A DNA stretch of 64,000 nucleotides. Origin: a virus. Position numbers and translations under genes: made by a program. The notes under the pieces were generated by a model, which worked only from the letters and a program-made list of their open reading frames with translations, ran no database searches and was not told where the DNA came from. Where the stretch lies: UHGV virus genome UHGV-1366828, one strand, 5' to 3'. Positions within the stretch are counted from its first letter, which is position 1. Every line of letters starts with the position of its first letter. This document shows positions 1,692 to 13,138 of this stretch, piece after piece.

Positions 1692-2862
1692 GATTGGTGG
1701 TAGTAATATCTACACCCAATTTTTCGCTGACGTCAATATTAAGTAGTGTTTCAAAACTCTTGATGAACGGGTCGTCTTTCTTACTCAGCATACTGTAACA
1801 TCTGTCATACAGCTTACGAGCTTCTACAGGATTGGTCTGAAAATATGTGTAGACATTCTTCTTTCCGCGTATCTTAATCTCATTTCCCAGCTCGTCTTTC
1901 AGAAGTTCTCCTGTATCAGGATCTACAAGTTTAAATGACCCCTGAACTGAATTATCAATCAATCCAAGATGAACACCAACATCAATTGTATCCTGCAACC
2001 AATCAATTCCCTTAGTGTAATTAAGGTGTGCCATGCCAAGTTTTCTGTCCCATTTACATACCTTAGTTTTAAGGACGTAACACTCGATAATATGGCCTGC
2101 AGGAGATTCTGCTTTCTTCGTTAGGATATTACCCTCCTCGTCAAAGAAATCTCCTCGCTTAAACATAAGCCGCATAGAACAAGCATGCTTCCAAGCTCTT
2201 CCTCCAGGAGTAGTAAGAGGATCTCCATAACCGGTCATGTTTTCACGAACCTGATTGATTGCAATAAGTGTTGCTTTGTACTTACGAAGTAATCCTATAG
2301 CAGTATTTGCAAAACGAGTTAGAGCCTTGGCAATTCCGCCCATCTGTTGCTTCTCCATAGACTCATCAGCAATCTGCGCAGGGACAAGCGTTGCAATACT
2401 GTCGAATACAAGGAGTCCTACTTCCCCTGTCTTCAACATTTCAAGCGCCATGTCAAAGATCTCTTCTGCAGACTGCGCTTCTGGACGAATACATACAGTC
2501 TTAACAGCCGCATTCTCGCTCATGTCATAACCGAGCTTTGCTGCCCAAACAGGATCCGCTGTGCCTTCATTATCCAGAAATACAATGCATCGTGGGTTAT
2601 TCGGGTTCCTTGTAATCTCTGCTTTCTGATAAGACGCGCAAGCAAGAAAGGCGTTTGTAGTCTTGCCGCTCCCCTCAGCACCTGAGAATTCGACGATTCT
2701 CCCCTCTGGAATCCCCCCGTAAATTGCAAAATCAAGCCCCGGAGATCCCAAAGATAATACCCCGTCTACACACAGATCATCAACCCCAAACTTAACTACA
2801 TTGTCGCCATACTTCTTTGAAATAGATTTCAACACTTCATTTAAACTTTTTGACTCTGCCAT
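1678..2862 (-). CDS. recA: RecA/UvsX-family recombinase
   Basis: Walker A GAEGSGKTT; RecA core LIAINQVRENMTGYGDPLTTPGGRAWKHACSMRL (cf. [34 protein letters not shown]); GGAGGA SD before ATG at 2862 (MAESKSLNEV). Confidence 0.8.
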   Translation of the reverse strand: MAESKSLNEVLKSISKKYGDNVVKFGVDDLCVDGVLSLGSPGLDFAIYGGIPEGRIVEFSGAEGSGKTTNAFLACASYQKAEITRNPNNPRCIVFLDNEGTADPVWAAKLGYDMSENAAVKTVCIRPEAQSAEEIFDMALEMLKTGEVGLLVFDSIATLVPAQIADESMEKQQMGGIAKALTRFANTAIGLLRKYKATLIAINQVRENMTGYGDPLTTPGGRAWKHACSMRLMFKRGDFFDEEGNILTKKAESPAGHIIECYVLKTKVCKWDRKLGMAHLNYTKGIDWLQDTIDVGVHLGLIDNSVQGSFKLVDPDTGELLKDELGNEIKIRGKKNVYTYFQTNPVEARKLYDRCYSMLSKKDDPFIKSFETLLNIDVSEKLGVDITTTNLEEM

Positions 2863-4442
2863 TATGTCCTCCAAACAAAAGTAGATTGTCCACAATCATA
2901 TATACAAACAAAATTGTTTGCTAACATCAGCTCTTTATTTGAGCTACCTTTTCCATAGTTCGTGCCAAATAACTGGTCATACCCTCTTTGCATCAGTAGA
3001 TTGTTTGTAATGTGTTTCTTGTCCTTATCTCGATACCAATGTATGCTCGGCGCATTATTACTTAGTGGCATAAAGCCTAACTTTGTATAAACATCTCCAG
3101 TAAATTTACTGTTGTCACAGTAGGATATGACAGCTTCGGGTTTATATACATTGACAAAATATTTAAATAACTTTTCTGCCCCACCTATAACTAAATATTT
3201 ACATCTTGTACACAGACGAAGTAATTCCCATTGGTAATTCTTATTGTAACGAGGTTTGCCAAAGGTCATTACCTGCACAAGTTCATCATTATAGTATAGG
3301 CCTAACAGTACTTTCTGTCCGCTACAAGTATTCTGAAAATGATATGTATTTAAGAATGCGTCGCACTCTTTTTTATCTATCTCTCTTAAAGTACATTTAC
3401 GAGCATAAACAGATTGTTTGGAAAGTAAAGCTGAAACAATCTTTTGTTTATCGTCCCAGTCCCACACGTGAACACATCTGTAACCATTATCTTTCGCACA
3501 ATTTGATTTGTTAAGATGATATAAAGAGTCTATAGGCTCTCCAGGAAAAGGTGACCATGTAGTATTATGTGTGCTGTAAGGATCAATTTCAACTAAAATA
3601 TTGCCTATTCGAAAATCAAACCAATAATGACCAAGTCGAAATTCTTCTTCGTATTCTATACCTAGATTGTCCAAAAGGACAGCGAACTCATTGTTGTATT
3701 TACTATTTTTCTTGTAAGCTAAGTTCTTACGGCAGTCTTCTGTTACTACATATTCTTCTACACCGTAACGCTCTAGGTTAGTTTCACGTCGTTTGATACA
3801 TGCTTCAGAATATGACGCATGCAAGCTACCTTTATTTCTAATTCTGGTTTCTTTCGACTTTTGTTTTACAGCTTCGTTTTGAGCTGTACTTCTAGTCCCG
3901 TAACGCTGTAAATTTGTCTGTATAACTTTCTCTTTTATATCGTTGTTCTGCATTGCATTAACAACACCATATTTGCTTATACAAGTTTCTATGTGCTTGT
4001 CAATGTTATTGTAGTTTGCGTCGCCGTGCCGTTTTAGTTTCGTCTGTTTACATTTAATAACATTCTGCTTCTTCTGCTCTTCTGACTGTGAATGTATTCC
4101 TTTATTTACTAAAAGTTTGTTTCTTCCTTCATCAGACTTAATATGAAAGTACGCGAATATATGAGATAGCTGATTGTAATTGGGAATATTGAATTTTTCG
4201 CAAAGTTCTTTCGCAGAATAGGATTTAAAACATTCTTTAAATTCTGTTTCGTCAATATTCCCAATAAGTTGAAAGAATTTGTTTTGTGGGTTGTACTTCA
4301 CCAGATGATACCAGTAACGCAGCTTCTCTGACTGTGCTTCTGTAATGTTAAAATGTTTCAAAGTTTCAGACAAAGAGTGAGTTGTGTAATATTCCTCAAA
4401 CGAATCTTTTGGTATTGAGTTTACTAGTTCATCTAGTGTCAT
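2862..4442 (-). CDS. free-standing homing-endonuclease-like protein with a Vsr/DUF559-like PD-(D/E)xK nuclease core and repeated helical (K/R)YG DNA-binding-type modules
   Basis: HYWFDFRIGNILVEIDPYSTH resembles the Vsr/DUF559 nuclease signature; four ~30-aa repeats ending in RYG/RHG/KYG; inserted between recA and the coiled-coil gene. Confidence 0.35.
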   Translation of the reverse strand: MTLDELVNSIPKDSFEEYYTTHSLSETLKHFNITEAQSEKLRYWYHLVKYNPQNKFFQLIGNIDETEFKECFKSYSAKELCEKFNIPNYNQLSHIFAYFHIKSDEGRNKLLVNKGIHSQSEEQKKQNVIKCKQTKLKRHGDANYNNIDKHIETCISKYGVVNAMQNNDIKEKVIQTNLQRYGTRSTAQNEAVKQKSKETRIRNKGSLHASYSEACIKRRETNLERYGVEEYVVTEDCRKNLAYKKNSKYNNEFAVLLDNLGIEYEEEFRLGHYWFDFRIGNILVEIDPYSTHNTTWSPFPGEPIDSLYHLNKSNCAKDNGYRCVHVWDWDDKQKIVSALLSKQSVYARKCTLREIDKKECDAFLNTYHFQNTCSGQKVLLGLYYNDELVQVMTFGKPRYNKNYQWELLRLCTRCKYLVIGGAEKLFKYFVNVYKPEAVISYCDNSKFTGDVYTKLGFMPLSNNAPSIHWYRDKDKKHITNNLLMQRGYDQLFGTNYGKGSSNKELMLANNFVCIYDCGQSTFVWRT

Positions 4443-4454
4443 AGTTCCTCCTAA

Positions 4455-5021
4455 TCAAAGGTCAATTGTTTCGTTAAGAATTTTACGAACTCCTGTAACA
4501 GGCGTAGACGGAAGATATTCTTCACCCATACGTCTGCTGATAGATTTCGAGATAGTTGATATCATCGTGTTAGCTGCGTCAATCTTATTCTTCAAAACTT
4601 TATATGCCCTAGCATAGATGTCATTTGTAATGGCTTCTGACTTTGAAGCTTCTTCGCTGAGTGCTACTAGCTCATTGACAGTCTTCTTCTTATTACTAGT
4701 AGTGTCGGGAAGCTGGTTATCAAGATACGCCTGGTTGTATACTTCCTTATACTTTGTTTTACTAAGGTAATCAAGAGACCCTAATTTTTCAAGTCGCTCC
4801 TGCATAAAGTAAAGACAGTTAGAAAGCTCAAGATGATACTTTTCAAAGACAGAGATTGACGGGTCTGGAACTGAGATGATATCTGTATACACTGCCTGCA
4901 TAACATCGTCAAGTTCTTTCGTATATCGTTTGATTACTTCATCAGAGATTGTGGAATAAATAGCAAGATTGTCCTCTGTTTCAGCGACAACTTTTTCAAT
5001 TTCTTCAATAGAGATTTGCAT
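4455..5021 (-). CDS. hypothetical coiled-coil protein
   Basis: ORF track, compact spacing. Confidence 0.45.
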   Translation of the reverse strand: MQISIEEIEKVVAETEDNLAIYSTISDEVIKRYTKELDDVMQAVYTDIISVPDPSISVFEKYHLELSNCLYFMQERLEKLGSLDYLSKTKYKEVYNQAYLDNQLPDTTSNKKKTVNELVALSEEASKSEAITNDIYARAYKVLKNKIDAANTMISTISKSISRRMGEEYLPSTPVTGVRKILNETIDL

Positions 5022-8420: not shown

Positions 8421-8909
8421 TTAAGAAATACTAGTTACCCAGTCTAGTACTTCTTTTGGTGTATTTAAAACAGTGTGATTAGAAACTCCAAGTAGCATAT
8501 TGTTAATTGCAGGATCTGTAGCAACTGTCCAATATTGATGGGAGTTGGCAGGGAGTACCTCGATAGGATACACATTGTTTATCCTTGTGCCCTTATGCAG
8601 TTTACAAAACTCTGTTGCATAAAGTGCAACTGGTTTATGTAGTGCATATGCAATTCCCGCTTCCACAGCCGTGCCGGGGTCATCTCCGTCAATATAAGCA
8701 ACCATACAGTCGCAACCGATGATGTGCTCAACATCTGTATTGAACGTACTCAAAGAATCCTGGTATGTACTTTGGTCTTCAAAGATGACACCTTCGTCTC
8801 TCCAGGGGAAATATACTTCATGCCCTGCGGCTTCGAGCATGTCAGCAATCTTCTTTTCATGCTCGAAGTAGGCAAGGTTATCCATAATCTGTGCAAAGTA
8901 TATCTTCAT
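8421..8909 (-). CDS. nucleoside 2-deoxyribosyltransferase superfamily protein (NDT/DNPH1-like)
   Basis: KIYFA...IIGCDCMVAYIDGDDPGTAVEAGIAYALHKPVALY matches the NDT/Rcl core (ADVVVAEV...LGVGYELGRAVA..KP). Confidence 0.5.
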   Translation of the reverse strand: MKIYFAQIMDNLAYFEHEKKIADMLEAAGHEVYFPWRDEGVIFEDQSTYQDSLSTFNTDVEHIIGCDCMVAYIDGDDPGTAVEAGIAYALHKPVALYATEFCKLHKGTRINNVYPIEVLPANSHQYWTVATDPAINNMLLGVSNHTVLNTPKEVLDWVTSIS

Positions 8910-9694
8910 TACGCAGCCACCAGAGTAGGGGCGTCAAGGTTCTTGTTGACCTCTTGTGCTTCTTTCACAAGGTCGACATATTCCTGACCCACGTTATTCT
9001 TTCTCCAGGAATTAGCAATCTTGAATCCAATAGGGGAGAAAATCATCTGACCAATCAGCTCAATTACCATTCCCATAGCAGACATCGGAATCAGATGCAC
9101 AATGGCACCGAGTGTTCCCGCGTCCATGAACCAAGGCTGCCAAATACTGAAAAACAGACCGAAGAAGAAATTGTCCACAAACTGACCAAAAGCAGTTGAC
9201 ACCCAAGAAGCAGTAACGTACGCCTTCGCCGATGTACGATTCTTAAACTTCAGCAGGATGTACTTTGAAATGAGTGAGTTAACAATGTTACCAAAAAGGG
9301 CAGCACCGGCACCAGCGAACAGAGGCCAAGGGGCAGCAACAAACAGCGCACTGAAAATAGCAGATTCTTCAGGTGTCGCACCATACGAAGCAAAAGGCAA
9401 CATTGCGCCGATTGTCATCAGACCAATTGAAACAAGTTCAAGAAGCAACGCCGCAATGTTAATCTTGATTGCTGCTTTTGCACCGAATCGTTTTACAAGC
9501 ATATCAGACGCAAGGAACACTACCCAAGAAACAATAATGCCACAATCAAAAGGAACGGGACCAATAGCACCGCCTCTATTTGCCAGAAAGTTCATAGCAA
9601 TTAGACACGCCACAAGAAACGCAAATGGGATCGTCGGCATACATCTAAACAGTACTTTTGTTTCGTTCCATTCTTTCTTAAGATATTCAACCAT
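8909..9694 (-). CDS. yhhQ: YhhQ/COG1738-family queuosine-precursor (preQ0/preQ1) transporter
   Basis: multi-TM protein; FLASDMLVKRFGA (E. coli YhhQ FLATDLTVRIFGA) and TAFGQFVDNFFFGLFF (YhhQ TLFGNVSDTLAFFFIAF); start overlaps the stop of the NDT-like gene. Confidence 0.7.
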   Translation of the reverse strand: MVEYLKKEWNETKVLFRCMPTIPFAFLVACLIAMNFLANRGGAIGPVPFDCGIIVSWVVFLASDMLVKRFGAKAAIKINIAALLLELVSIGLMTIGAMLPFASYGATPEESAIFSALFVAAPWPLFAGAGAALFGNIVNSLISKYILLKFKNRTSAKAYVTASWVSTAFGQFVDNFFFGLFFSIWQPWFMDAGTLGAIVHLIPMSAMGMVIELIGQMIFSPIGFKIANSWRKNNVGQEYVDLVKEAQEVNKNLDAPTLVAA

Positions 9695-10088: not shown

Positions 10089-10117
10089 ATTATAGTGTAT
10101 TCTTTAACGTTCTTCAA
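10089..10117 (-). promoter_or_regulatory. sigma-70-type promoter TTGAAG-N17-TATAAT (minus strand), plus a second TGTTGTATAAT extended -10 just downstream
   Basis: minus-strand TTGAAGAACGTTAAAGAATACACTATAAT; sits between the polA stop and the membrane-protein gene. Confidence 0.5.
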
Positions 10118-11200
10118 CTTAATAGCTGAGTTAACTGTTCAGAAGTTAGCTCACTATGTCCTTCTAAAAGTTTATTGAAAGCTTCTTCTTTTGACACTCC
10201 AGAGTCTATAAGCTTCTGCAACTCTTGTTTTAATATGTCTCCGAAGTCATCTTCATACCAACAATTTACAATATATCCGTCGCACTTGAACGGTACTTGC
10301 ACCTTATCTGCAACAGAGGTTTTCATAACATAGGTCAAACGATTCATAACAGCTTCAGCGTTTTGCTTGGGGCATTCTACAATAACTTCATCATGAATCT
10401 GAAGTACTAGTTTAGCTCCTAGACGATTTAACTCTTCATCGTCAAATACTTTACGCATACATACCTTGGTCATCGAAGCTGCTCCGCCCTGGATACGAGC
10501 ATTTACGCACTGTCTTTCAGCCTGGCTTATAAATGCCCCATTGTCAACAATGTAGATGCCGTCCTTTTCCGCTTCTTGCTGAATCTTTTGATAGTCATTA
10601 CGCGATTTAACTTTTGAAAGTTTTTTCTTATACGACTCAACAAGGGCTGCAGAAGAATCGTTTACTTTACCCAACGTATAAAGAATCGGATTAAACTCCG
10701 TACTGGGCTTAGTGTTCTTTACTGTATACTTTGGAAGAAGTATGTCAGGCAATCTTCTACGTCTTCCCCAAAGGTCTTCTACATAACCAGTGACTTTTGC
10801 ATCTTTCTCTGTTTTCTCAGTCCACTCTTTAACCTTTGGAAACTGGTTATAAAAATCATTGATAATCTGTTGAGCTTCTTCTACAGTTGAATGAATCTGC
10901 TCGGCAATACTAGGAGCTCCTCTGCCATACATTATTCCAAGAATTAGACTTTTACAGTTACTACGTCTTTTCTTGCCTTCCGGATTAGGAGTTCCATCCT
11001 GACGATGCTCCATATTATCCCAGTAGTCGTTCTTGTATACAACAGACGCAACTGTAGCGTACAGATCCTTGTTTTCCTTATATGCAGCTATCATTGTATC
11101 GTCATTGGAATACGCAGACAAAAGACGGGGTTCCTGCTGCAACTACGAGAAGTCAGCTCCAACAAACACATTAGTCGTTCTAGTTCTGACTTTACTCATG
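10114..11200 (-). CDS. polA: family-A DNA polymerase, C-terminal segment (motifs A, B, C). It has its own SD-ATG (GAGGGGGTGATTAC-ATG, MSKVRTRTTNVFVGADFS) and one in-frame TAG at the motif-A Gln position
   Basis: GADFS[TAG]LQQEPRLL (cf. DYSQIELRIL); RRSNCKSLILGIMYGRGAPSIA (motif B, cf. RRSAKAINFGLIYGMSAFGLA); LVLQIHDEVIVE (motif C). Confidence 0.6.
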
Positions 11201-11258
11201 TAATCACCCCCTCGTTCAACTTTAATTTTCTCCGCATGAATTTTTCTTCTTTCCGTTT

Positions 11259-11519
11259 TTAATTAAAAAGGAATTTTATATCATTGCCTACATTGAAAAT
11301 ATTAGTGATAGTTCTTTGTGAGTATACTCCGTCATCTTCTATACTACACAGAGTATCTCCAACTGCAAGTTCGTCTGCTCTTTTCCATACACTAGGGCTT
11401 ATTTCTACTTCATCAGCAGCGGACACAGTAATAGAATTATTTTCAACTTCCGTGTCTTTTATACGTGTTCCTGCAGTAAACATCAATCGTATTTCTTTCG
11501 TATGAGACGGGATATTTTG
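11259..11519 (-). CDS. polA: family-A DNA polymerase exon 2 (QNIPSHTKEIRLMFTAG...) followed by ~64 non-polymerase codons ending in TAA
   Basis: starts exactly at QNIP, the continuation of PNL in exon 1; IRLMFTAG matches IRRAF(x)A. Confidence 0.5.
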   Translation of the reverse strand, partial: QNIPSHTKEIRLMFTAGTRIKDTEVENNSITVSAADEVEISPSVWKRADELAVGDTLCSIEDDGVYSQRTITNIFNVGNDIKFLFN

Positions 11520-11782
11520 CATTATGTTATCGTTAAGCTCTTTATCTTAACTTCTGTGACTATTTAGTATTCATCACAGTTCAGACTATATCATCAACTT
11601 GTAAAACAAGTTGCTGTGCGCTCGTGGAAGAATTATTGATATTAACTCTCATCTTCTAGTCGTTGCACCTTCAAGAAGATTTCCTTCTTGCTTGGCTCAG
11701 AGTTGTAGCATACAAGACTAAACTATTTTCTCTGAATTCACACAGTTTTCATATACTGTCGCCAGTATACGCCTCCATTGGA
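11520..11782 (-). other. group I self-splicing intron (ORF-less, ~263 nt) in polA between the PNL and QNIP codons
   Basis: exon 1 ends in U, intron ends in G; P1 candidate cctt|t with GGAGG internal guide; R-like CAACGACUAGAAG; S-like GAUGAUAUAGUCUGA (cf. AAGAUAUAGUCC); stops in all frames. Confidence 0.55.
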
Positions 11783-13138
11783 TTAAAGGTTCGGGTTACT
11801 AGAGCTGAATCTACCTGTACCTGCCCCAAGCTGATTAAAATGCGCGTGCAACCGATTATCTTTACTGTTTACACATTCCGGAATCTTGTCTATATACGTT
11901 CCGATCAGTTTTTCAAGGCCGCGTTTTTCAAGAATCAAATCGCATATTGGAAGCTTGATTTTCTGAAGAATTTCTTCTCCTGTTCCTCGAGGAGCTTTCT
12001 TGTCCTGTGCGGGTGTTCCTAGTATGTCATACAACAGAATTGCAAGCTGTGTAGGACTATTTAACTGCGGAGGATTTTCTAACTGTTCATTCTTTGACTT
12101 CTTGTAAGTAAATTCCCCCGCCTTATTAGGCTTTGAATTACGCTCTTTATAGTTTGCTTCTTTTGTCAATCTCCATGCAGATATCTTGTCAGAATACTTT
12201 GACAACTCCGTGTCAATCTTCGCGTTCACTTCGTCTACTTTTTTGTGGTACTTGTTGCTGAGTCTTTTCGCGTATTCTTTGTCAATCTCAATGCCATAAA
12301 GTTCCATTTCTGCGCACACGGGAACAACTGGCATTTCAACGTTCATAAACAGATCAAATAGCATTTCATTTCCAGGCTTATTAAACTGTTCCTTCTGCCA
12401 CTCATACAGTCTGTAAGTTATATAGGCATCCGTTGCTGCATACAAAGCAAAGATTTCGGGTCTAACATAAGCATACGGAATTCCTTGAAATAGATGCTCT
12501 ATATCATACTTTTCTTGAGTACTGTCAATATGAAGTATGTATTGTTTTTTCAAGCCTGCAAGCTCATTTTCATCGAGTATTCTTGCTGCTATTTCAGTGT
12601 CCCAATAAATATTCAGAACACAATTACAAGTACACTTGATAACCTCATAGTCAAACTTTCCGTTATGCATGAGAATCTGTGTGTTGGAAAGACGGTCAAA
12701 CTGCTCTTTGATATCTAGCTCTGTAAGCTGGTTCTCAATGAGAATGTCTGTGTCGGGTTGTGTATGATGAATAGGAATATATGCGCTAAGTTGACCCGGA
12801 GTATAGATACAGGCGCCCATAAGTAAACAAGTAAGAGGTTCAAGACTGTTATTTGTTTCTGTGTCTATAGCAATTATTCCGTTACGGATAGCTTCATCAA
12901 TATACTGTGACAACTCATCTTTTGATGTAATCACCTTTGTATTGGAAGTATATCCTCCGAGAACTCTGTTTACTTCTTCATAAATAAGCTGCAATTTGTC
13001 AAAGGTAGAAACTGTCTTTGACTTTATAGCCTTTCTAGTTTCTACCTTTGGGTCTTTAGGAGAACTGACCTTCTTTGCAACTTTCTTCACTTCCTTCTTT
13101 GCGGAAGGAACTTCAAATTCATCTCCCCACAGGGACAT
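11783..13138 (-). CDS. polA: family-A DNA polymerase exon 1 (3'-5' exonuclease domain and N-terminal polymerase domain up to ...GRFSSSNPNL)
   Basis: Exo I AIDTETN; GTGRFSSSNPNL matches Pol I TGRLSSSDPNL(QNIP). Confidence 0.75.
   Translation of the reverse strand: MSLWGDEFEVPSAKKEVKKVAKKVSSPKDPKVETRKAIKSKTVSTFDKLQLIYEEVNRVLGGYTSNTKVITSKDELSQYIDEAIRNGIIAIDTETNNSLEPLTCLLMGACIYTPGQLSAYIPIHHTQPDTDILIENQLTELDIKEQFDRLSNTQILMHNGKFDYEVIKCTCNCVLNIYWDTEIAARILDENELAGLKKQYILHIDSTQEKYDIEHLFQGIPYAYVRPEIFALYAATDAYITYRLYEWQKEQFNKPGNEMLFDLFMNVEMPVVPVCAEMELYGIEIDKEYAKRLSNKYHKKVDEVNAKIDTELSKYSDKISAWRLTKEANYKERNSKPNKAGEFTYKKSKNEQLENPPQLNSPTQLAILLYDILGTPAQDKKAPRGTGEEILQKIKLPICDLILEKRGLEKLIGTYIDKIPECVNSKDNRLHAHFNQLGAGTGRFSSSNPNL

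What the first reader, a model, noticed from the sequence alone, without database searches (positions are those of the whole stretch)
11520..11782. ORF-less group I intron splitting the DNA polymerase exactly between PNL and QNIP
Exon 1 ends ...GRFSSSNPNL, then a TAA; 263 nt downstream the reading frame resumes with QNIPSHTKEIRLMF. This is the uninterrupted Pol I motif (TGRLSSSDPNL-QNIP-xRxxxGxxIRxAF). The intervening RNA has a U at the 5' splice site, a terminal G, a plausible P1 (ccuu|u pairing with GGAGG 12 nt into the intron) and good matches to the conserved R (CAACGACUAGAAG) and S (GAUGAUAUAGUCUGA) core elements. Group I introns in phage polymerase genes are known, for example in SPO1-like phages. 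At ~263 nt with no homing-endonuclease ORF, this one is near the lower size limit.
Basis: partly seen in the sequence, partly recalled or inferred. Interest (0 to 1): 0.6.

Follow-up and report, generated by a model that had tools for sequence, protein, structure and literature searches.

The report
Group I intron in phage polymerase
A 266-base self-splicing group I intron with no gene of its own interrupts a gut phage's DNA polymerase gene at a site already known from another phage; it is ordinary in itself, but it forms one end of a larger mobile cassette that also splits the gene and leaves an odd stop codon inside the catalytic motif.

Summary
On the minus strand, exon 1 ends at 11786 (…SSSNPNL). 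A 266-nt intron (11785→11520, starting UAA, ending G) follows, and exon 2 starts at 11519 (QNIPSH…). Rfam Intron_gpI scores 73–77 bits (cut-off 50). Hundreds of 96–98%-identical uninterrupted 820-aa polymerases read …NPNL|QNIP… across the junction. Diverged relatives show compensatory changes in P6a, P7, P8 and P9.

The site (E. coli Pol I L676|Q677) is the same as the published phiL7 intron site, so this is a new member of a known kind. 266 nt is normal for an ORF-less phage intron.

Forty-nine nt downstream the gene is split by a homing-endonuclease cassette. The LAGLIDADG gene is present in three sister genomes (intact in L005, broken by an in-frame TAA in MT839691) and deleted here. The cassette gives ORF1 a ~70-aa tail and ORF2 a new start, and leaves TCG-TAG-TTG between DFS and QQEPR.

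Thirteen polymerase lineages share this layout. Twelve have Ser–stop–(0–2 nt)–Ser in three different frames, which looks like a natural short translational "stop-hop" analogous to T4 mobA/gene 60. Intron plus cassette travel as one nearly invariant block.

The parts
11786..13138 (-). Polymerase exon 1 (451 codons: 3'-5' exonuclease domain plus the N-terminal part of the DNA_pol_A domain), ending …GRFSSSNPNL (CTT = 11788..11786).
   Evidence: ORF list. Pfam DNA_pol_A_exo1 and DNA_pol_A profile positions 23-128. 94.5% nt identity to intron-less allele L002 up to 11786.
11520..11785 (-). ORF-less group I intron, 266 nt. It starts UAA (in-frame stop) and ends AUG (terminal G = 11520). Helices: P1 3' strand/IGS 11777..11772; P2 11770..11751; P3 11745..11739 with 11620..11614; P4-P5 11736..11696; P6/P6a 11695..11668; P7 11661..11657 with 11588..11584; extra hairpin between P7 and P3' (P7.1/7.2-like) 11656..11627; P8 11613..11595; P9 11579..11554; P9.x 11551..11532.
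   Evidence: Rfam RF00028 73.2 and 76.7 bits. Fold. Helix coordinates. Covariation. Boundaries from intron-less alleles.
11471..11519 (-). Exon 2: 49 nt homologous to the parental gene (QNIPSHTKEIRLMFTA + G). It is only ~80% identical to intron-less alleles, almost all differences synonymous, and identical among cassette-bearing genomes.
   Evidence: BLAST mapping to L002. 0 differences from MT839691.
11259..11470 (-). In-frame C-terminal extension ('tail', ~70 aa, GTRIKDTEVENN…IKFLFN) of polymerase ORF1, plus its TAA stop (11261..11259). After intron splicing ORF1 is 451+86 = 537 aa.
   Evidence: Translation. Homologous tails in all split lineages. No Pfam match. No Rfam ribozyme.
11257..11262 (-). 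Deletion scar (TTAAAA-type microhomology) where sister genomes carry ~1.0 kb encoding a LAGLIDADG homing endonuclease.
   Evidence: Alignment with MT839691/L001, L005 and L119. An uninterrupted 344-aa ORF in L005. Pfam LAGLIDADG_3 at 40.3 bits.
11196..11256 (-). Remnant of the 3' end of the endonuclease ORF (…KRKEEKFMRRKLKLNEGVIT*). Its TGA (11198..11196) overlaps the ATG of ORF2. It contains the Shine-Dalgarno GAGGGGGTGA (11213..11204).
   Evidence: A strong SD is conserved in all lineages.
11146..11199 (-). Start of polymerase ORF2. ATG 11199..11197; a basic 9-aa leader MSKVRTRTT (11199..11173); then a diverged replacement copy of the parental segment, NVFVGADFS (11172..11146), which carries the motif A catalytic Asp and ends in the Ser codon TCG (11148..11146).
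   Evidence: The same layout occurs in 13 lineages.
11140..11145 (-). Six-nt insertion TAG TTG between DFS and QQEPR, absent from intron-less alleles. It is the candidate bypass ('stop-hop') gap and landing codon. In 12 other lineages the second codon is Ser (TCN).
10114..11139 (-). Remainder of the polymerase (QQEPRLLS… 341 codons plus stop), 96.7% identical to the intron-less allele over the 240 nt compared (11139..10900).
   Evidence: (DNA_pol_A profile 161-292 and onwards).

Best explanation
Window 11785..11520 (minus strand) is a self-splicing subgroup-IA-type group I intron with no ORF. It is inserted in a family-A DNA polymerase gene of a ~130-kb human-gut phage, between the codons for L and Q of …DPNL|QNIP… (E. 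coli Pol I L676|Q677).

Mechanism:
1. The 5' exon end CCUU pairs with the internal guide UGGAGG to form P1, with a U·G wobble at the cleavage site.
2. Exogenous guanosine, bound at P7, attacks after U11786.
3. The freed exon then attacks after the terminal G11520. This joins CUU to CAA and removes the in-frame UAA.

Shown: the RNA family, the exact junction, the helices and their covariation. Inferred: catalysis itself.

The intron has no endonuclease and does not appear to move on its own. It is the left-hand end of a nearly invariant ~650-nt block (about 1.65 kb with the endonuclease gene) spanning 11785..11140. That block also contains a free-standing LAGLIDADG homing-endonuclease cassette that splits the polymerase 49 nt downstream. 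The most likely mode of spread is co-conversion, that is trans- or 'collaborative' homing, when that endonuclease cuts an empty allele. In this window the endonuclease gene has since been deleted.

Splicing therefore yields ORF1 (exon 1 + exon 2 + a 70-aa tail), not a full-length polymerase. The rest is made from ORF2, which has its own SD and ATG.
For: - Rfam RF00028: 73.2 bits/E 1e-16 and 76.7 bits/E 1e-19, full model 1-253. The same hit occurs in sister loci.
- At least 120 listed 820-aa homologues at 96-98% identity read …SSSNPNLQNIPSH… without interruption. DNA of three such alleles aligns up to 11786 and resumes at 11519.
- P1 with U·G, the terminal G, and the R and S elements are all present.
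- Covariation in a five-intron alignment: 84% of cells paired against 33-47% in slid controls; 21 of 38 pairs changed on both sides; 0 of 500 shuffles as high; P7 pseudoknot 96% paired.
- The phiL7 intron has the same junction and the same UAA…GGAGG start.
- The intron is identical in the window, L005 and L119, with 1 difference in L001. Exon polymorphism begins 7-22 nt upstream and 15-27 nt downstream of the block.
- All four intron copies found carry the cassette.
- An uninterrupted LAGLIDADG ORF is present in L005.
Against: - No experimental splicing data exist.
- No convincing P10 pairing with the 3' exon could be drawn (my reading of the sequence).
- Copies of this particular intron are too similar to each other to show covariation, so the covariation comes from more distant relatives aligned only over the 3' two-thirds. 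The structure tested was derived from the window sequence, which favours it against the slid controls.
- The trans-homing inference rests on co-occurrence in only four genomes.
- The endonuclease target site is unknown.
- A related LAGLIDADG cassette (L088) exists without the intron, so the intron is not required by that endonuclease.
Confidence: 0.9

Rival explanations
1. The intron is a splicing-dead relic and the polymerase gene in this phage is a pseudogene, already broken by the downstream cassette and the in-frame TAG.
For: - The gene has three interruptions within 650 nt.
- The endonuclease gene is deleted here and carries an in-frame TAA in MT839691.
- The second codon of the junction is TTG rather than the Ser codon seen in all other lineages.
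- Synonymous-biased divergence of the flanking exons may largely pre-date insertion, so it does not prove current function.
Against: - The ribozyme core is intact and scores well above threshold.
- The same block sits in four different, otherwise intact phage backgrounds, on contigs up to 104 kb.
- The split layout is conserved in 13 polymerase lineages down to ~36% protein identity, with SD, start codon and motif A preserved.
- Exon 2 and the NVFVGADFS segment differ from parental alleles almost only synonymously.
Confidence: 0.05
2. The intron is a bona fide ribozyme but spreads independently, by vertical inheritance in a donor lineage or by reverse splicing, or is mobilised by an unlinked endonuclease. 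Its linkage with the cassette would then be just physical proximity (49 nt).
For: - Introns at this site and the neighbouring site exist in other phages with their own HNH endonucleases.
- Cassette-bearing lineages L010-L016, L030, L050, L056, L074, L088 and L110 lack the intron.
Against: - In this phage clade the intron was found only together with the cassette (4 of 4).
- The block of near-identity starts exactly at the intron's 5' end.
- Any double-strand break repaired from this donor would co-convert two insertions 49 nt apart (inference from established homing biology; reviews).
Confidence: 0.15
3. The 266-nt stretch is merely a spacer between two independently translated polymerase fragments. 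ORF 11259..11522 would start at the ATG that ends the 'intron', and no RNA splicing would take place.
For: - An in-frame ATG (11522..11520) immediately precedes QNIP, and gene callers annotate such ORFs, as in Enterococcus phage TV16.
- The gene is demonstrably split into separately initiated ORFs further downstream.
Against: - There is no Shine-Dalgarno sequence upstream of that ATG.
- The AUG is the conserved 3' terminus (…AACAnAAUG) of this intron family.
- The covariance-model hit and the covariation evidence.
- The split would fall between PNL and QNIP, with nothing that could hold the fragments together.
Confidence: 0.02

Closest known systems
[quoted passage not shown]
   Same: Identical codon junction (…DPNL|QN…). 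The 5' exon ends AAC CTT, the intron starts UAA, and the guide sequence contains GGAGG a few nt in.
   Different: The phiL7 intron is about 0.7-0.75 kb by my reading of the record and encodes an HNH endonuclease (P45). Ours is 266 nt and ORF-less. The host phages are unrelated (a Xanthomonas siphovirus against a ~130-kb gut phage). Apart from P1 I found no notable sequence similarity (phiL7 was not among the listed hits).
SPO1 / SP82 / Bastille / Pf-WMP3 and Enterococcus Saphexavirus polymerase introns (subgroup IA2, 'site 674')
   Same: Same gene, same conserved finger-domain motif. The P7-P9 region and the 3' tail are about 75% identical to the Enterococcus phage TV16 intron (GAUAAAGAGCCUAUCGAUAACACAAUG).
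   Different: These introns are inserted two codons upstream (SNP|NL) and carry HNH nicking endonucleases (I-HmuI family).
Trans- or 'collaborative' homing of ORF-less introns by neighbouring free-standing endonucleases (T4 mobE with the nrdB intron; cyanophage F-CphI with the psbA intron)
   Same: An intron without a functional endonuclease lies next to a free-standing homing endonuclease gene, and the two are inherited as one unit.
   Different: Here the endonuclease (LAGLIDADG) lies inside the same gene, which it splits. Its cleavage site is unknown, so it is not established that it targets the intron insertion site.
T4 MobA / gene 39-gene 60 mobile element with its 50-nt translational bypass
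   Same: For the downstream cassette: the endonuclease splits an essential enzyme gene; ORF1 gets an in-frame C-terminal extension; ORF2 gets a new start, a short basic N-terminal extension and a diverged replacement copy of the deleted segment; a stop follows immediately after a codon that recurs just before coding resumes; the element ends at that codon; the endonuclease is swapped between families or cleanly excised in some lineages.
   Different: Different gene (PolA, not topoisomerase II) and different endonucleases (LAGLIDADG, GIY-YIG, HNH-like, not MobA). The gap is 3-5 nt, for a 6-8-nt shift, instead of 50 nt. The take-off codon is Ser TCN, not Gly GGA. There is only a 3-6-bp hairpin. 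In this window the landing codon is TTG, not a match.
Phage genes with several closely spaced introns (Twort orf142; Bastillevirinae polymerase and terminase genes)
   Same: Multiple intervening sequences in one essential replication gene, with very short internal exons.
   Different: Here only the first interruption is an intron. The second has no ribozyme signature in any of the five loci searched with Rfam (window, L010, L012, L013, L030) and has its own translation signals.

Membership tests
Group I intron (Rfam RF00028) | Covariance-model score at or above the curated gathering threshold over the full model | tested here: met
   73.2 bits (whole window) and 76.7 bits (local), gathering score 50, model positions 1-253.
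Group I intron (Rfam RF00028) | P1 helix formed by the 5' exon end and an internal guide sequence, with a U·G wobble at the 5' splice site | tested here: met
   CCUU|UA pairs with UGGAGG (11777..11772). U11786 pairs with G.
Group I intron (Rfam RF00028) | Terminal guanosine (omega G) at the 3' splice site | tested here: met
   G11520 immediately precedes CAA (Q). The boundary is fixed by intron-less alleles.
Group I intron (Rfam RF00028) | Conserved core helices, including the P7 pseudoknot, supported by compensatory changes | tested here: met
   P6a, P7, P7.1, P8, P9 and P9.x: 84.4% paired, 21 of 38 pairs with changes on both sides, 0 of 500 shuffles as high, slid controls 33-47%. P3-P5 could not be tested because the 5' third of the relatives aligned poorly.
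Group I intron (Rfam RF00028) | Precise removal restores the host reading frame and conserved protein sequence | tested here: met
   Joining 11786 to 11519 gives …SSSNPNLQNIPSH…, identical in register to 820-aa uninterrupted homologues.
Group I intron (Rfam RF00028) | Guanosine-dependent self-splicing activity | not testable with these tools
   Needs in vitro transcription and splicing, or RT-PCR.
Subgroup IA2 (phage-type) group I introns | Extra pairing(s) P7.1/P7.2 between P7 and the 3' strand of P3 | tested here: inconclusive
   One hairpin (11656..11627) lies at that position. It appears as a 34-nt insertion relative to the Rfam consensus and its base is 81% paired in relatives. One hairpin does not by itself separate IA1, IA2 and IA3.
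Mobile (endonuclease-encoding) group I intron | A homing-endonuclease ORF inside the intron | tested here: not met
   The intron is 266 nt with stops in all three frames. The only endonuclease of the locus lies outside the intron, in sister genomes.
Intein | In-frame insertion with Hint/splicing blocks and a nucleophile at +1 | tested here: not met
   The intron begins with an in-frame stop. The downstream tail has no Pfam Hint or intein match and ends in a stop. The ORF2 leader is only 9 aa.
Group II intron | Domain V/VI or other group II RNA signatures | tested here: not met
   No Rfam hit other than RF00028 in 11050..11900 at E<=10.
MobA/gene 60-type endonuclease cassette with translational bypass (downstream element, 11470..11140) | A free-standing endonuclease splits the ORF and adds a C-terminal extension to ORF1 and an N-terminal extension plus a replacement copy of the deleted segment to ORF2 | tested here: met
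   compared with the description read. In this window the endonuclease itself is deleted.
MobA/gene 60-type endonuclease cassette with translational bypass (downstream element, 11470..11140) | A stop codon immediately 3' of the take-off codon, and a matching landing codon where coding resumes | tested here: inconclusive
   The stop directly follows Ser in 13 of 13 lineages. It is TGA in the TAG-recoded phage L012. Ser/Ser codons flank it in 12 of 13. In this window the pair is TCG/TTG, not matched.
MobA/gene 60-type endonuclease cassette with translational bypass (downstream element, 11470..11140) | A 50-nt gap with take-off stem-loop; homology to MobA (HNH) and to the topoisomerase context | tested here: not met
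   The gap is 3-5 nt, the endonucleases are LAGLIDADG_3 or GIY-YIG, and the host gene is PolA. The element is therefore analogous to MobA/gene 60, not a member of that family.
MobA/gene 60-type endonuclease cassette with translational bypass (downstream element, 11470..11140) | Ribosomes actually bypass the gap, giving a single polypeptide across the junction | not testable with these tools
   Needs mass spectrometry or reporter assays.

The most novel reading that the evidence does not exclude
The polymerase of this phage, and of at least 12 other phage polymerase lineages, is expressed through a natural, programmed short translational bypass ('stop-hop').

Proposed mechanism: ORF2 starts at its own SD/ATG. 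It translates a basic leader plus NVFVGADFS. Peptidyl-tRNA-Ser then disengages at TCN in front of a UAG or UGA stop and re-pairs 6-8 nt downstream on a second Ser codon (TTG in this window). Translation continues with QQEPR, which regenerates the exact motif A sequence.

The few inserted nucleotides would serve, as in T4 mobA/gene 60, to destroy the target site of the cassette's own homing endonuclease. The group I intron would be a passenger of this composite element.

This would be the first bypass cassette outside the topoisomerase gene. It would also be the first natural use of the short stop-hops so far known only from synthetic constructs.
Probability: 0.5. Interest if true: 0.85.

Novelty: new member of a known kind. 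Interest (0 to 1): 0.42.

Why it matters
The intron itself adds one more well-supported example of a group I intron at the L676|Q677 hot-spot of phage family-A polymerase genes. This one is in an uncultured ~130-kb human-gut phage. It shows an ORF-less intron travelling as the edge of a larger endonuclease-driven block, which is a clean natural case of intron hitch-hiking.

The greater value lies next door. The same block contains a gene-splitting endonuclease cassette built like the T4 mobA/gene 60 element, but in a different gene, with different endonucleases and only a 6-8-nt gap. If ribosomes really hop that gap, it would answer the long-standing expectation that short-distance natural counterparts of gene 60 bypassing exist. 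It would also give a simple, widely distributed system for studying take-off and landing.

For annotation, such polymerase genes will be called as three or four fragments or as pseudogenes unless both intron splicing and the split and hop are modelled.

Tried and rejected
1. **Second group I or II intron for the ~300-nt block after exon 2.** Rejected. There is no Rfam hit at E<=10 in the window or at E<=1 in four relatives, including ~200-nt versions. The MFE z-score is only -2. A conserved SD and start codon argue for translation re-start.

2. **Intein or split intein ('fractured gene').** Considered because the tail looked Hint-like to me and a LAGLIDADG gene follows. Rejected. There is no Pfam Hint signal, no nucleophile at the junctions, stops and frame changes intervene, the ORF2 leader is only 9 aa, and splicing the tails out would delete the catalytic Asp strand (for the comparison).

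3. **TAG read as an amino acid in this phage.** Rejected for the window. There is no excess of coding length when TAG is read through and there are no tRNAs. The insertion would also add two residues to motif A. It is true, however, for relative L012.

4. **Termination-reinitiation at the TTG after the TAG.** Possible only in the window clade and in L013 (GTG). There is no in-frame start codon in L010, L012 or L030 (my reading of the sequences). It would also leave the catalytic Asp on an 18-aa peptide.

5. **Frameshift or readthrough.** This would need three different mechanisms in homologous sites (0, +1, +2 frames) and would always add two residues.

6. **Ser codon family (TCN against AGC) as a signal.** Rejected. 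Uninterrupted alleles also use TCN.

7. **Covariation among copies of this intron.** Impossible, because the copies are identical or differ at one base.

8. **Search for intron-only alleles.** Nothing found. One exact 22-mer from the intron in the metagenome scan and one exact 32-mer in a viral scan each gave one hit. Exact-match patterns can miss diverged copies.
Full report
**1. The observation**

The feature lies on the minus strand. Read 5'→3' on that strand, the long ORF 13138→11783 ends …GGTAGATTCAGCTCTAGTAACCCGAACCTT TAA (…GRFSSSNPNL*). Further on, …ATAACATAATG CAA AAT ATC CCG TCT CAT… reads M-QNIPSHTKEIRLMF.

A whole-window Rfam scan gives a single hit above gathering threshold. It is RF00028 Intron_gpI at 11795→11562, 73.2 bits (threshold 50), E = 1.1e-16, covering model positions 1-253. 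A local scan gives 76.7 bits with a better P9 (11795→11554).

**2. Exact boundaries**

A provisional spliced protein found thousands of homologues. The 120 best are all uninterrupted 820-aa polymerases at 96-98% identity, from contigs up to ~139 kb. One is named 'Siphoviridae sp. ctsf32 DNA polymerase' by UniRef. They read …GRFSSSNPNLQNIPSHVKEIRLMFRAAEGNVFAGADFSQQEPRLL….

DNA of three such alleles (L002-L004) aligns with the window up to 11786 (CTT) and resumes at 11519 (CAA). This fixes several points:
- The intron is 11785..11520, 266 nt.
- The TAA is its first three nucleotides.
- The last exon base is U.
- The last intron base is G.

Pfam places exon 1 at DNA_pol_A profile positions 23-128 and the C-terminal ORF from position 161.

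**3. Structure**

The helices are as follows:
- **P1:** CCUU|UA with UGGAGG, giving U·G at the splice site.
- **P2:** 11770..11751.
- **P3:** 11745..11739 with 11620..11614.
- **P4-P6:** 11736..11668.
- **P7:** GACUA 11661..11657 with UAGUC 11588..11584.
- **Extra hairpin between P7 and P3':** 11656..11627. This arrangement is typical of subgroup IA.
- **P8:** 11613..11595.
- **P9:** 11579..11554.
- **A further hairpin:** 11551..11532.
- **3' tail:** GAUAACAUAAUG.

I could not draw a convincing P10.

Copies of this intron are too alike for covariation analysis. BLAST, however, found partial relatives in Clostridium phage CPQ4, a second gut-phage scaffold, a crAss-like phage and Enterococcus phage TV16. 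On a five-sequence alignment the helices P6a, P7, P7.1, P8, P9 and P9.x gave these results:
- 84.4% of cells are paired, against 33-47% when partners are slid by 1-3 columns.
- 21 of 38 pairs change on both sides, against 4-10 in the slid controls.
- None of 500 shuffles reaches the observed values.
- P9 and P9.x are 100% paired.
- P7 is 96% paired, with two compensatory pairs.

One caveat applies. The structure was taken from the window sequence, which favours it in the slid control.

**4. Comparison with known introns**

A paper on the Pf-WMP3 intron lists three intron sites in phage family-A polymerase genes, in E. coli numbering:
- 674: SPO1, SP82, Bastille, Pf-WMP3.
- 676: phiL7.
- 881: phiI, W31.

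I checked the records. phiL7 exon 1 ends …SSSDPNL with AAC CTT|TAA TAACCTGGAGG…, and exon 2 begins QNVSKG…. That is the same junction, the same UAA start and the same kind of guide sequence as here. Enterococcus phage TV16 has a 3' intron end about 75% identical to ours but splits SNP|NLQQ, which is site 674.

This is therefore a new member of a known kind at a known hot-spot. In Bastillevirinae, introns average 802 ± 342 nt, mostly because of endonuclease genes. A 266-nt ORF-less intron is small but, to my knowledge, not near any limit.

**5. Splicing does not restore a single ORF**

After exon 2, similarity to empty alleles stops after 49 nt (11471) and resumes only at 11139 (CAG CAG GAA = QQE). 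The stretch in between contains:
- An in-frame ~70-aa extension of ORF1, ending at TAA 11261..11259.
- A strong SD (GAGGGGGTGA).
- ATG 11199, followed by MSKVRTRTT-NVFVGADFS.
- TAG TTG (11145..11140), six nucleotides that empty alleles lack.

Three sister genomes carry the same arrangement plus ~1.0 kb inserted at 11257-11262: MT839691 (human faeces, Mexico), an IMG/VR contig of 104 kb, and ENA contig ULRP01013369. The insert encodes a double-motif LAGLIDADG endonuclease. Its ORF is uninterrupted at 344 aa in L005 and is interrupted by a TAA in MT839691. The ORF in ULRP01013369 (L119) was not examined. The window thus has an endonuclease-deleted derivative.

**6. One mobile block**

Between the window and MT839691, the stretch 11785..11140 differs at 10 of 646 positions (intron: 1 of 266). 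The flanking exons differ by 5.9% and 3.3%, mostly synonymously (53:7 and 29:4 codons).

The intron is identical in the window, L005 and L119. Polymorphism among these genomes begins 7-22 nt upstream of the 5' splice site and 15-27 nt downstream of 11140. Exon 2 and the NVFVGADFS segment are only ~80% identical to empty alleles, again synonymously.

This is the signature of a composite element recently copied into diverged backgrounds, with the intron as its left end. I infer that the ORF-less intron spreads by co-conversion when the LAGLIDADG enzyme cuts empty alleles. This resembles the trans- or collaborative homing described for T4 mobE with the nrdB intron and for F-CphI with the psbA intron.

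Two caveats apply:
- Exon divergence between carriers mostly reflects pre-existing diversity, so it is not proof that the interrupted gene is under selection now.
- A related LAGLIDADG cassette (L088) lacks the intron.

**7. The second interruption is a gene split, not an intron**

Relatives at 36-79% protein identity lack intron 1 but are interrupted after the same residue (467 of the 820-aa protein). These are L010/11, L012, L013-16, L030, L050, L056, L074, L088 and L110. For L050 the contig begins inside the gene, so the N-terminal part and the presence or absence of intron 1 cannot be judged.

Rfam finds no ribozyme in the five loci searched (window, L010, L012, L013, L030), even in the ~200-nt versions. 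All the split lineages share the following:
- A homologous tail on ORF1.
- An optional endonuclease: LAGLIDADG, GIY-YIG, an HNH-like ORF, or none.
- A strong SD plus ATG or GTG.
- A basic leader.
- The motif A strand ending D[FY]S.
- A stop codon.
- 0-2 nt of spacer.
- A Ser codon, followed by QQEP[RK].

The junctions are:

| Lineage | Junction | Offset |
|---|---|---|
| L010 | TCT TAG TCT | +6 |
| L123, L134 | TCT TAG TCA | +6 |
| L012 | TCT TGA G TCA | +7 |
| L030 | TCT TAG T TCC | +7 |
| L050 | TCT TAG G TCA | +7 |
| L056 | TCG TGA G TCA | +7 |
| L088, L110 | TCT TAG G TCT | +7 |
| L013 | TCG TGA GT TCG | +8 |
| L074 | TCT TAG CG TCG | +8 |
| L131 | TCC TAG TA TCA | +8 |
| Window clade | TCG TAG TTG | +6 |

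Four arguments bear on the mechanism:
- Only a move of the ribosome from the first Ser codon to the second regenerates the native DFSQQEPR in all three frames. Readthrough or frameshifting would need three different mechanisms and would always add two residues to the catalytic motif.
- Re-initiation lacks a start codon in L010, L012 and L030, the lineages I inspected for one.
- L012 is a TAG→Gln recoded phage, and its stop at this position is TGA. A genuine stop is therefore conserved.
- A 3-6-bp hairpin, GACU(U)/(G)AGUC, spans the site in most lineages.

The whole layout matches point by point the MobA/gene 39-gene 60 element of T4-like phages as described in a 2022 preprint. That layout comprises a C-terminal extension, an endonuclease that can be exchanged or excised, an N-terminal extension, a diverged replacement segment, and a bypass cassette ending at the landing codon. 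The preprint also reports that the insert protects against the element's own endonuclease.

A 2016 review states that 'stop-hops' with matched codons flanking a stop are known from synthetic constructs. It adds that short natural counterparts of gene 60 have long been presumed, and that no natural in-frame stop-hopping was known. My literature searches found no description of this polymerase cassette. No catalogued phage other than MT839691 carries the window's tail.

Bypassing here is inference, not demonstration. In this window the landing codon is TTG, a mismatch at the middle position, which weakens the case for this particular genome.

**8. Verdict**

The finding is real and correctly interpreted. 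It is an ORF-less, IA-type group I intron at the phiL7 site of a phage family-A polymerase gene: a new member of a known kind and of modest interest in itself.

Its context raises the interest. The intron is the edge of a composite homing-endonuclease element that splits the polymerase and contains a candidate natural stop-hop. That reading has roughly even odds and would be important if confirmed.

Noticed in passing
window 11140-11470 (minus strand); also L010, L012, L013, L030, L050, L056, L074, L088, L110, L123, L131, L134: A homing-endonuclease cassette splits the polymerase 49 nt after the intron. It consists of a ~70-aa tail on ORF1, an endonuclease (deleted here), a new SD/ATG, a basic leader, a replacement NVFVGADFS segment, then stop + 0-2 nt + a Ser codon before QQEPR, in three different frames across 13 lineages. 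This is a candidate natural short translational bypass, analogous to T4 mobA/gene 60.
   Followed up: yes
L012 (IMGVR_UViG_3300032038_008650), polymerase gene 2310-5020: This relative has in-frame TAG at conserved Gln positions throughout its polymerase (for example SQ*EPR), and its coding length doubles when TAG is read through. It is evidently a TAG→Gln recoded phage. Its stop at the bypass-like junction is TGA.
   Followed up: partly
L121 (MT837385.1, human faecal phage scaffold) about 590-860 and 1125-1374: This scaffold seems to hold two group I introns about 270 nt apart. One resembles the window intron by BLAST and alignment but was not reported at Rfam gathering threshold. The second scores 77.2 bits. 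I did not identify the host gene.
   Followed up: no
L120 (Clostridium phage CPQ4, MZ401006.1 about 2100-2380): A stretch between two 'hypothetical protein' CDSs aligns with the P6-P9 core of the window intron and shows compensatory changes, but it is unannotated and fell below the Rfam gathering score. It is probably an unannotated group I intron.
   Followed up: partly
window 8421-9694 (minus strand), immediately downstream of the polymerase: Genes for a nucleoside 2-deoxyribosyltransferase-family protein and a Vut_1 (queuosine-precursor transporter family) membrane protein sit next to the replication genes. They are conserved in the intron-less relatives (Pfam calls in L002-L004). This might relate to nucleotide salvage or DNA base modification.
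   Followed up: no
window, whole: TAG is rarely used as a stop: 3 of 53 stop-to-stop ORFs of at least 150 codons, against 29 TAA and 21 TGA. No tRNA gene occurs in the 64 kb. There is no sign of stop-codon reassignment in this phage.
   Followed up: partly
window 11473-11466 and 11136-11129 (minus strand): The 8-mer GCAGGAAC occurs both at the exon 2/tail boundary (ACTGCAGGAACACG) and at the resumption of the parental sequence (TTGCAGCAGGAACCCC), in different reading phases. It may be chance or a trace of how the cassette was inserted.
   Followed up: no
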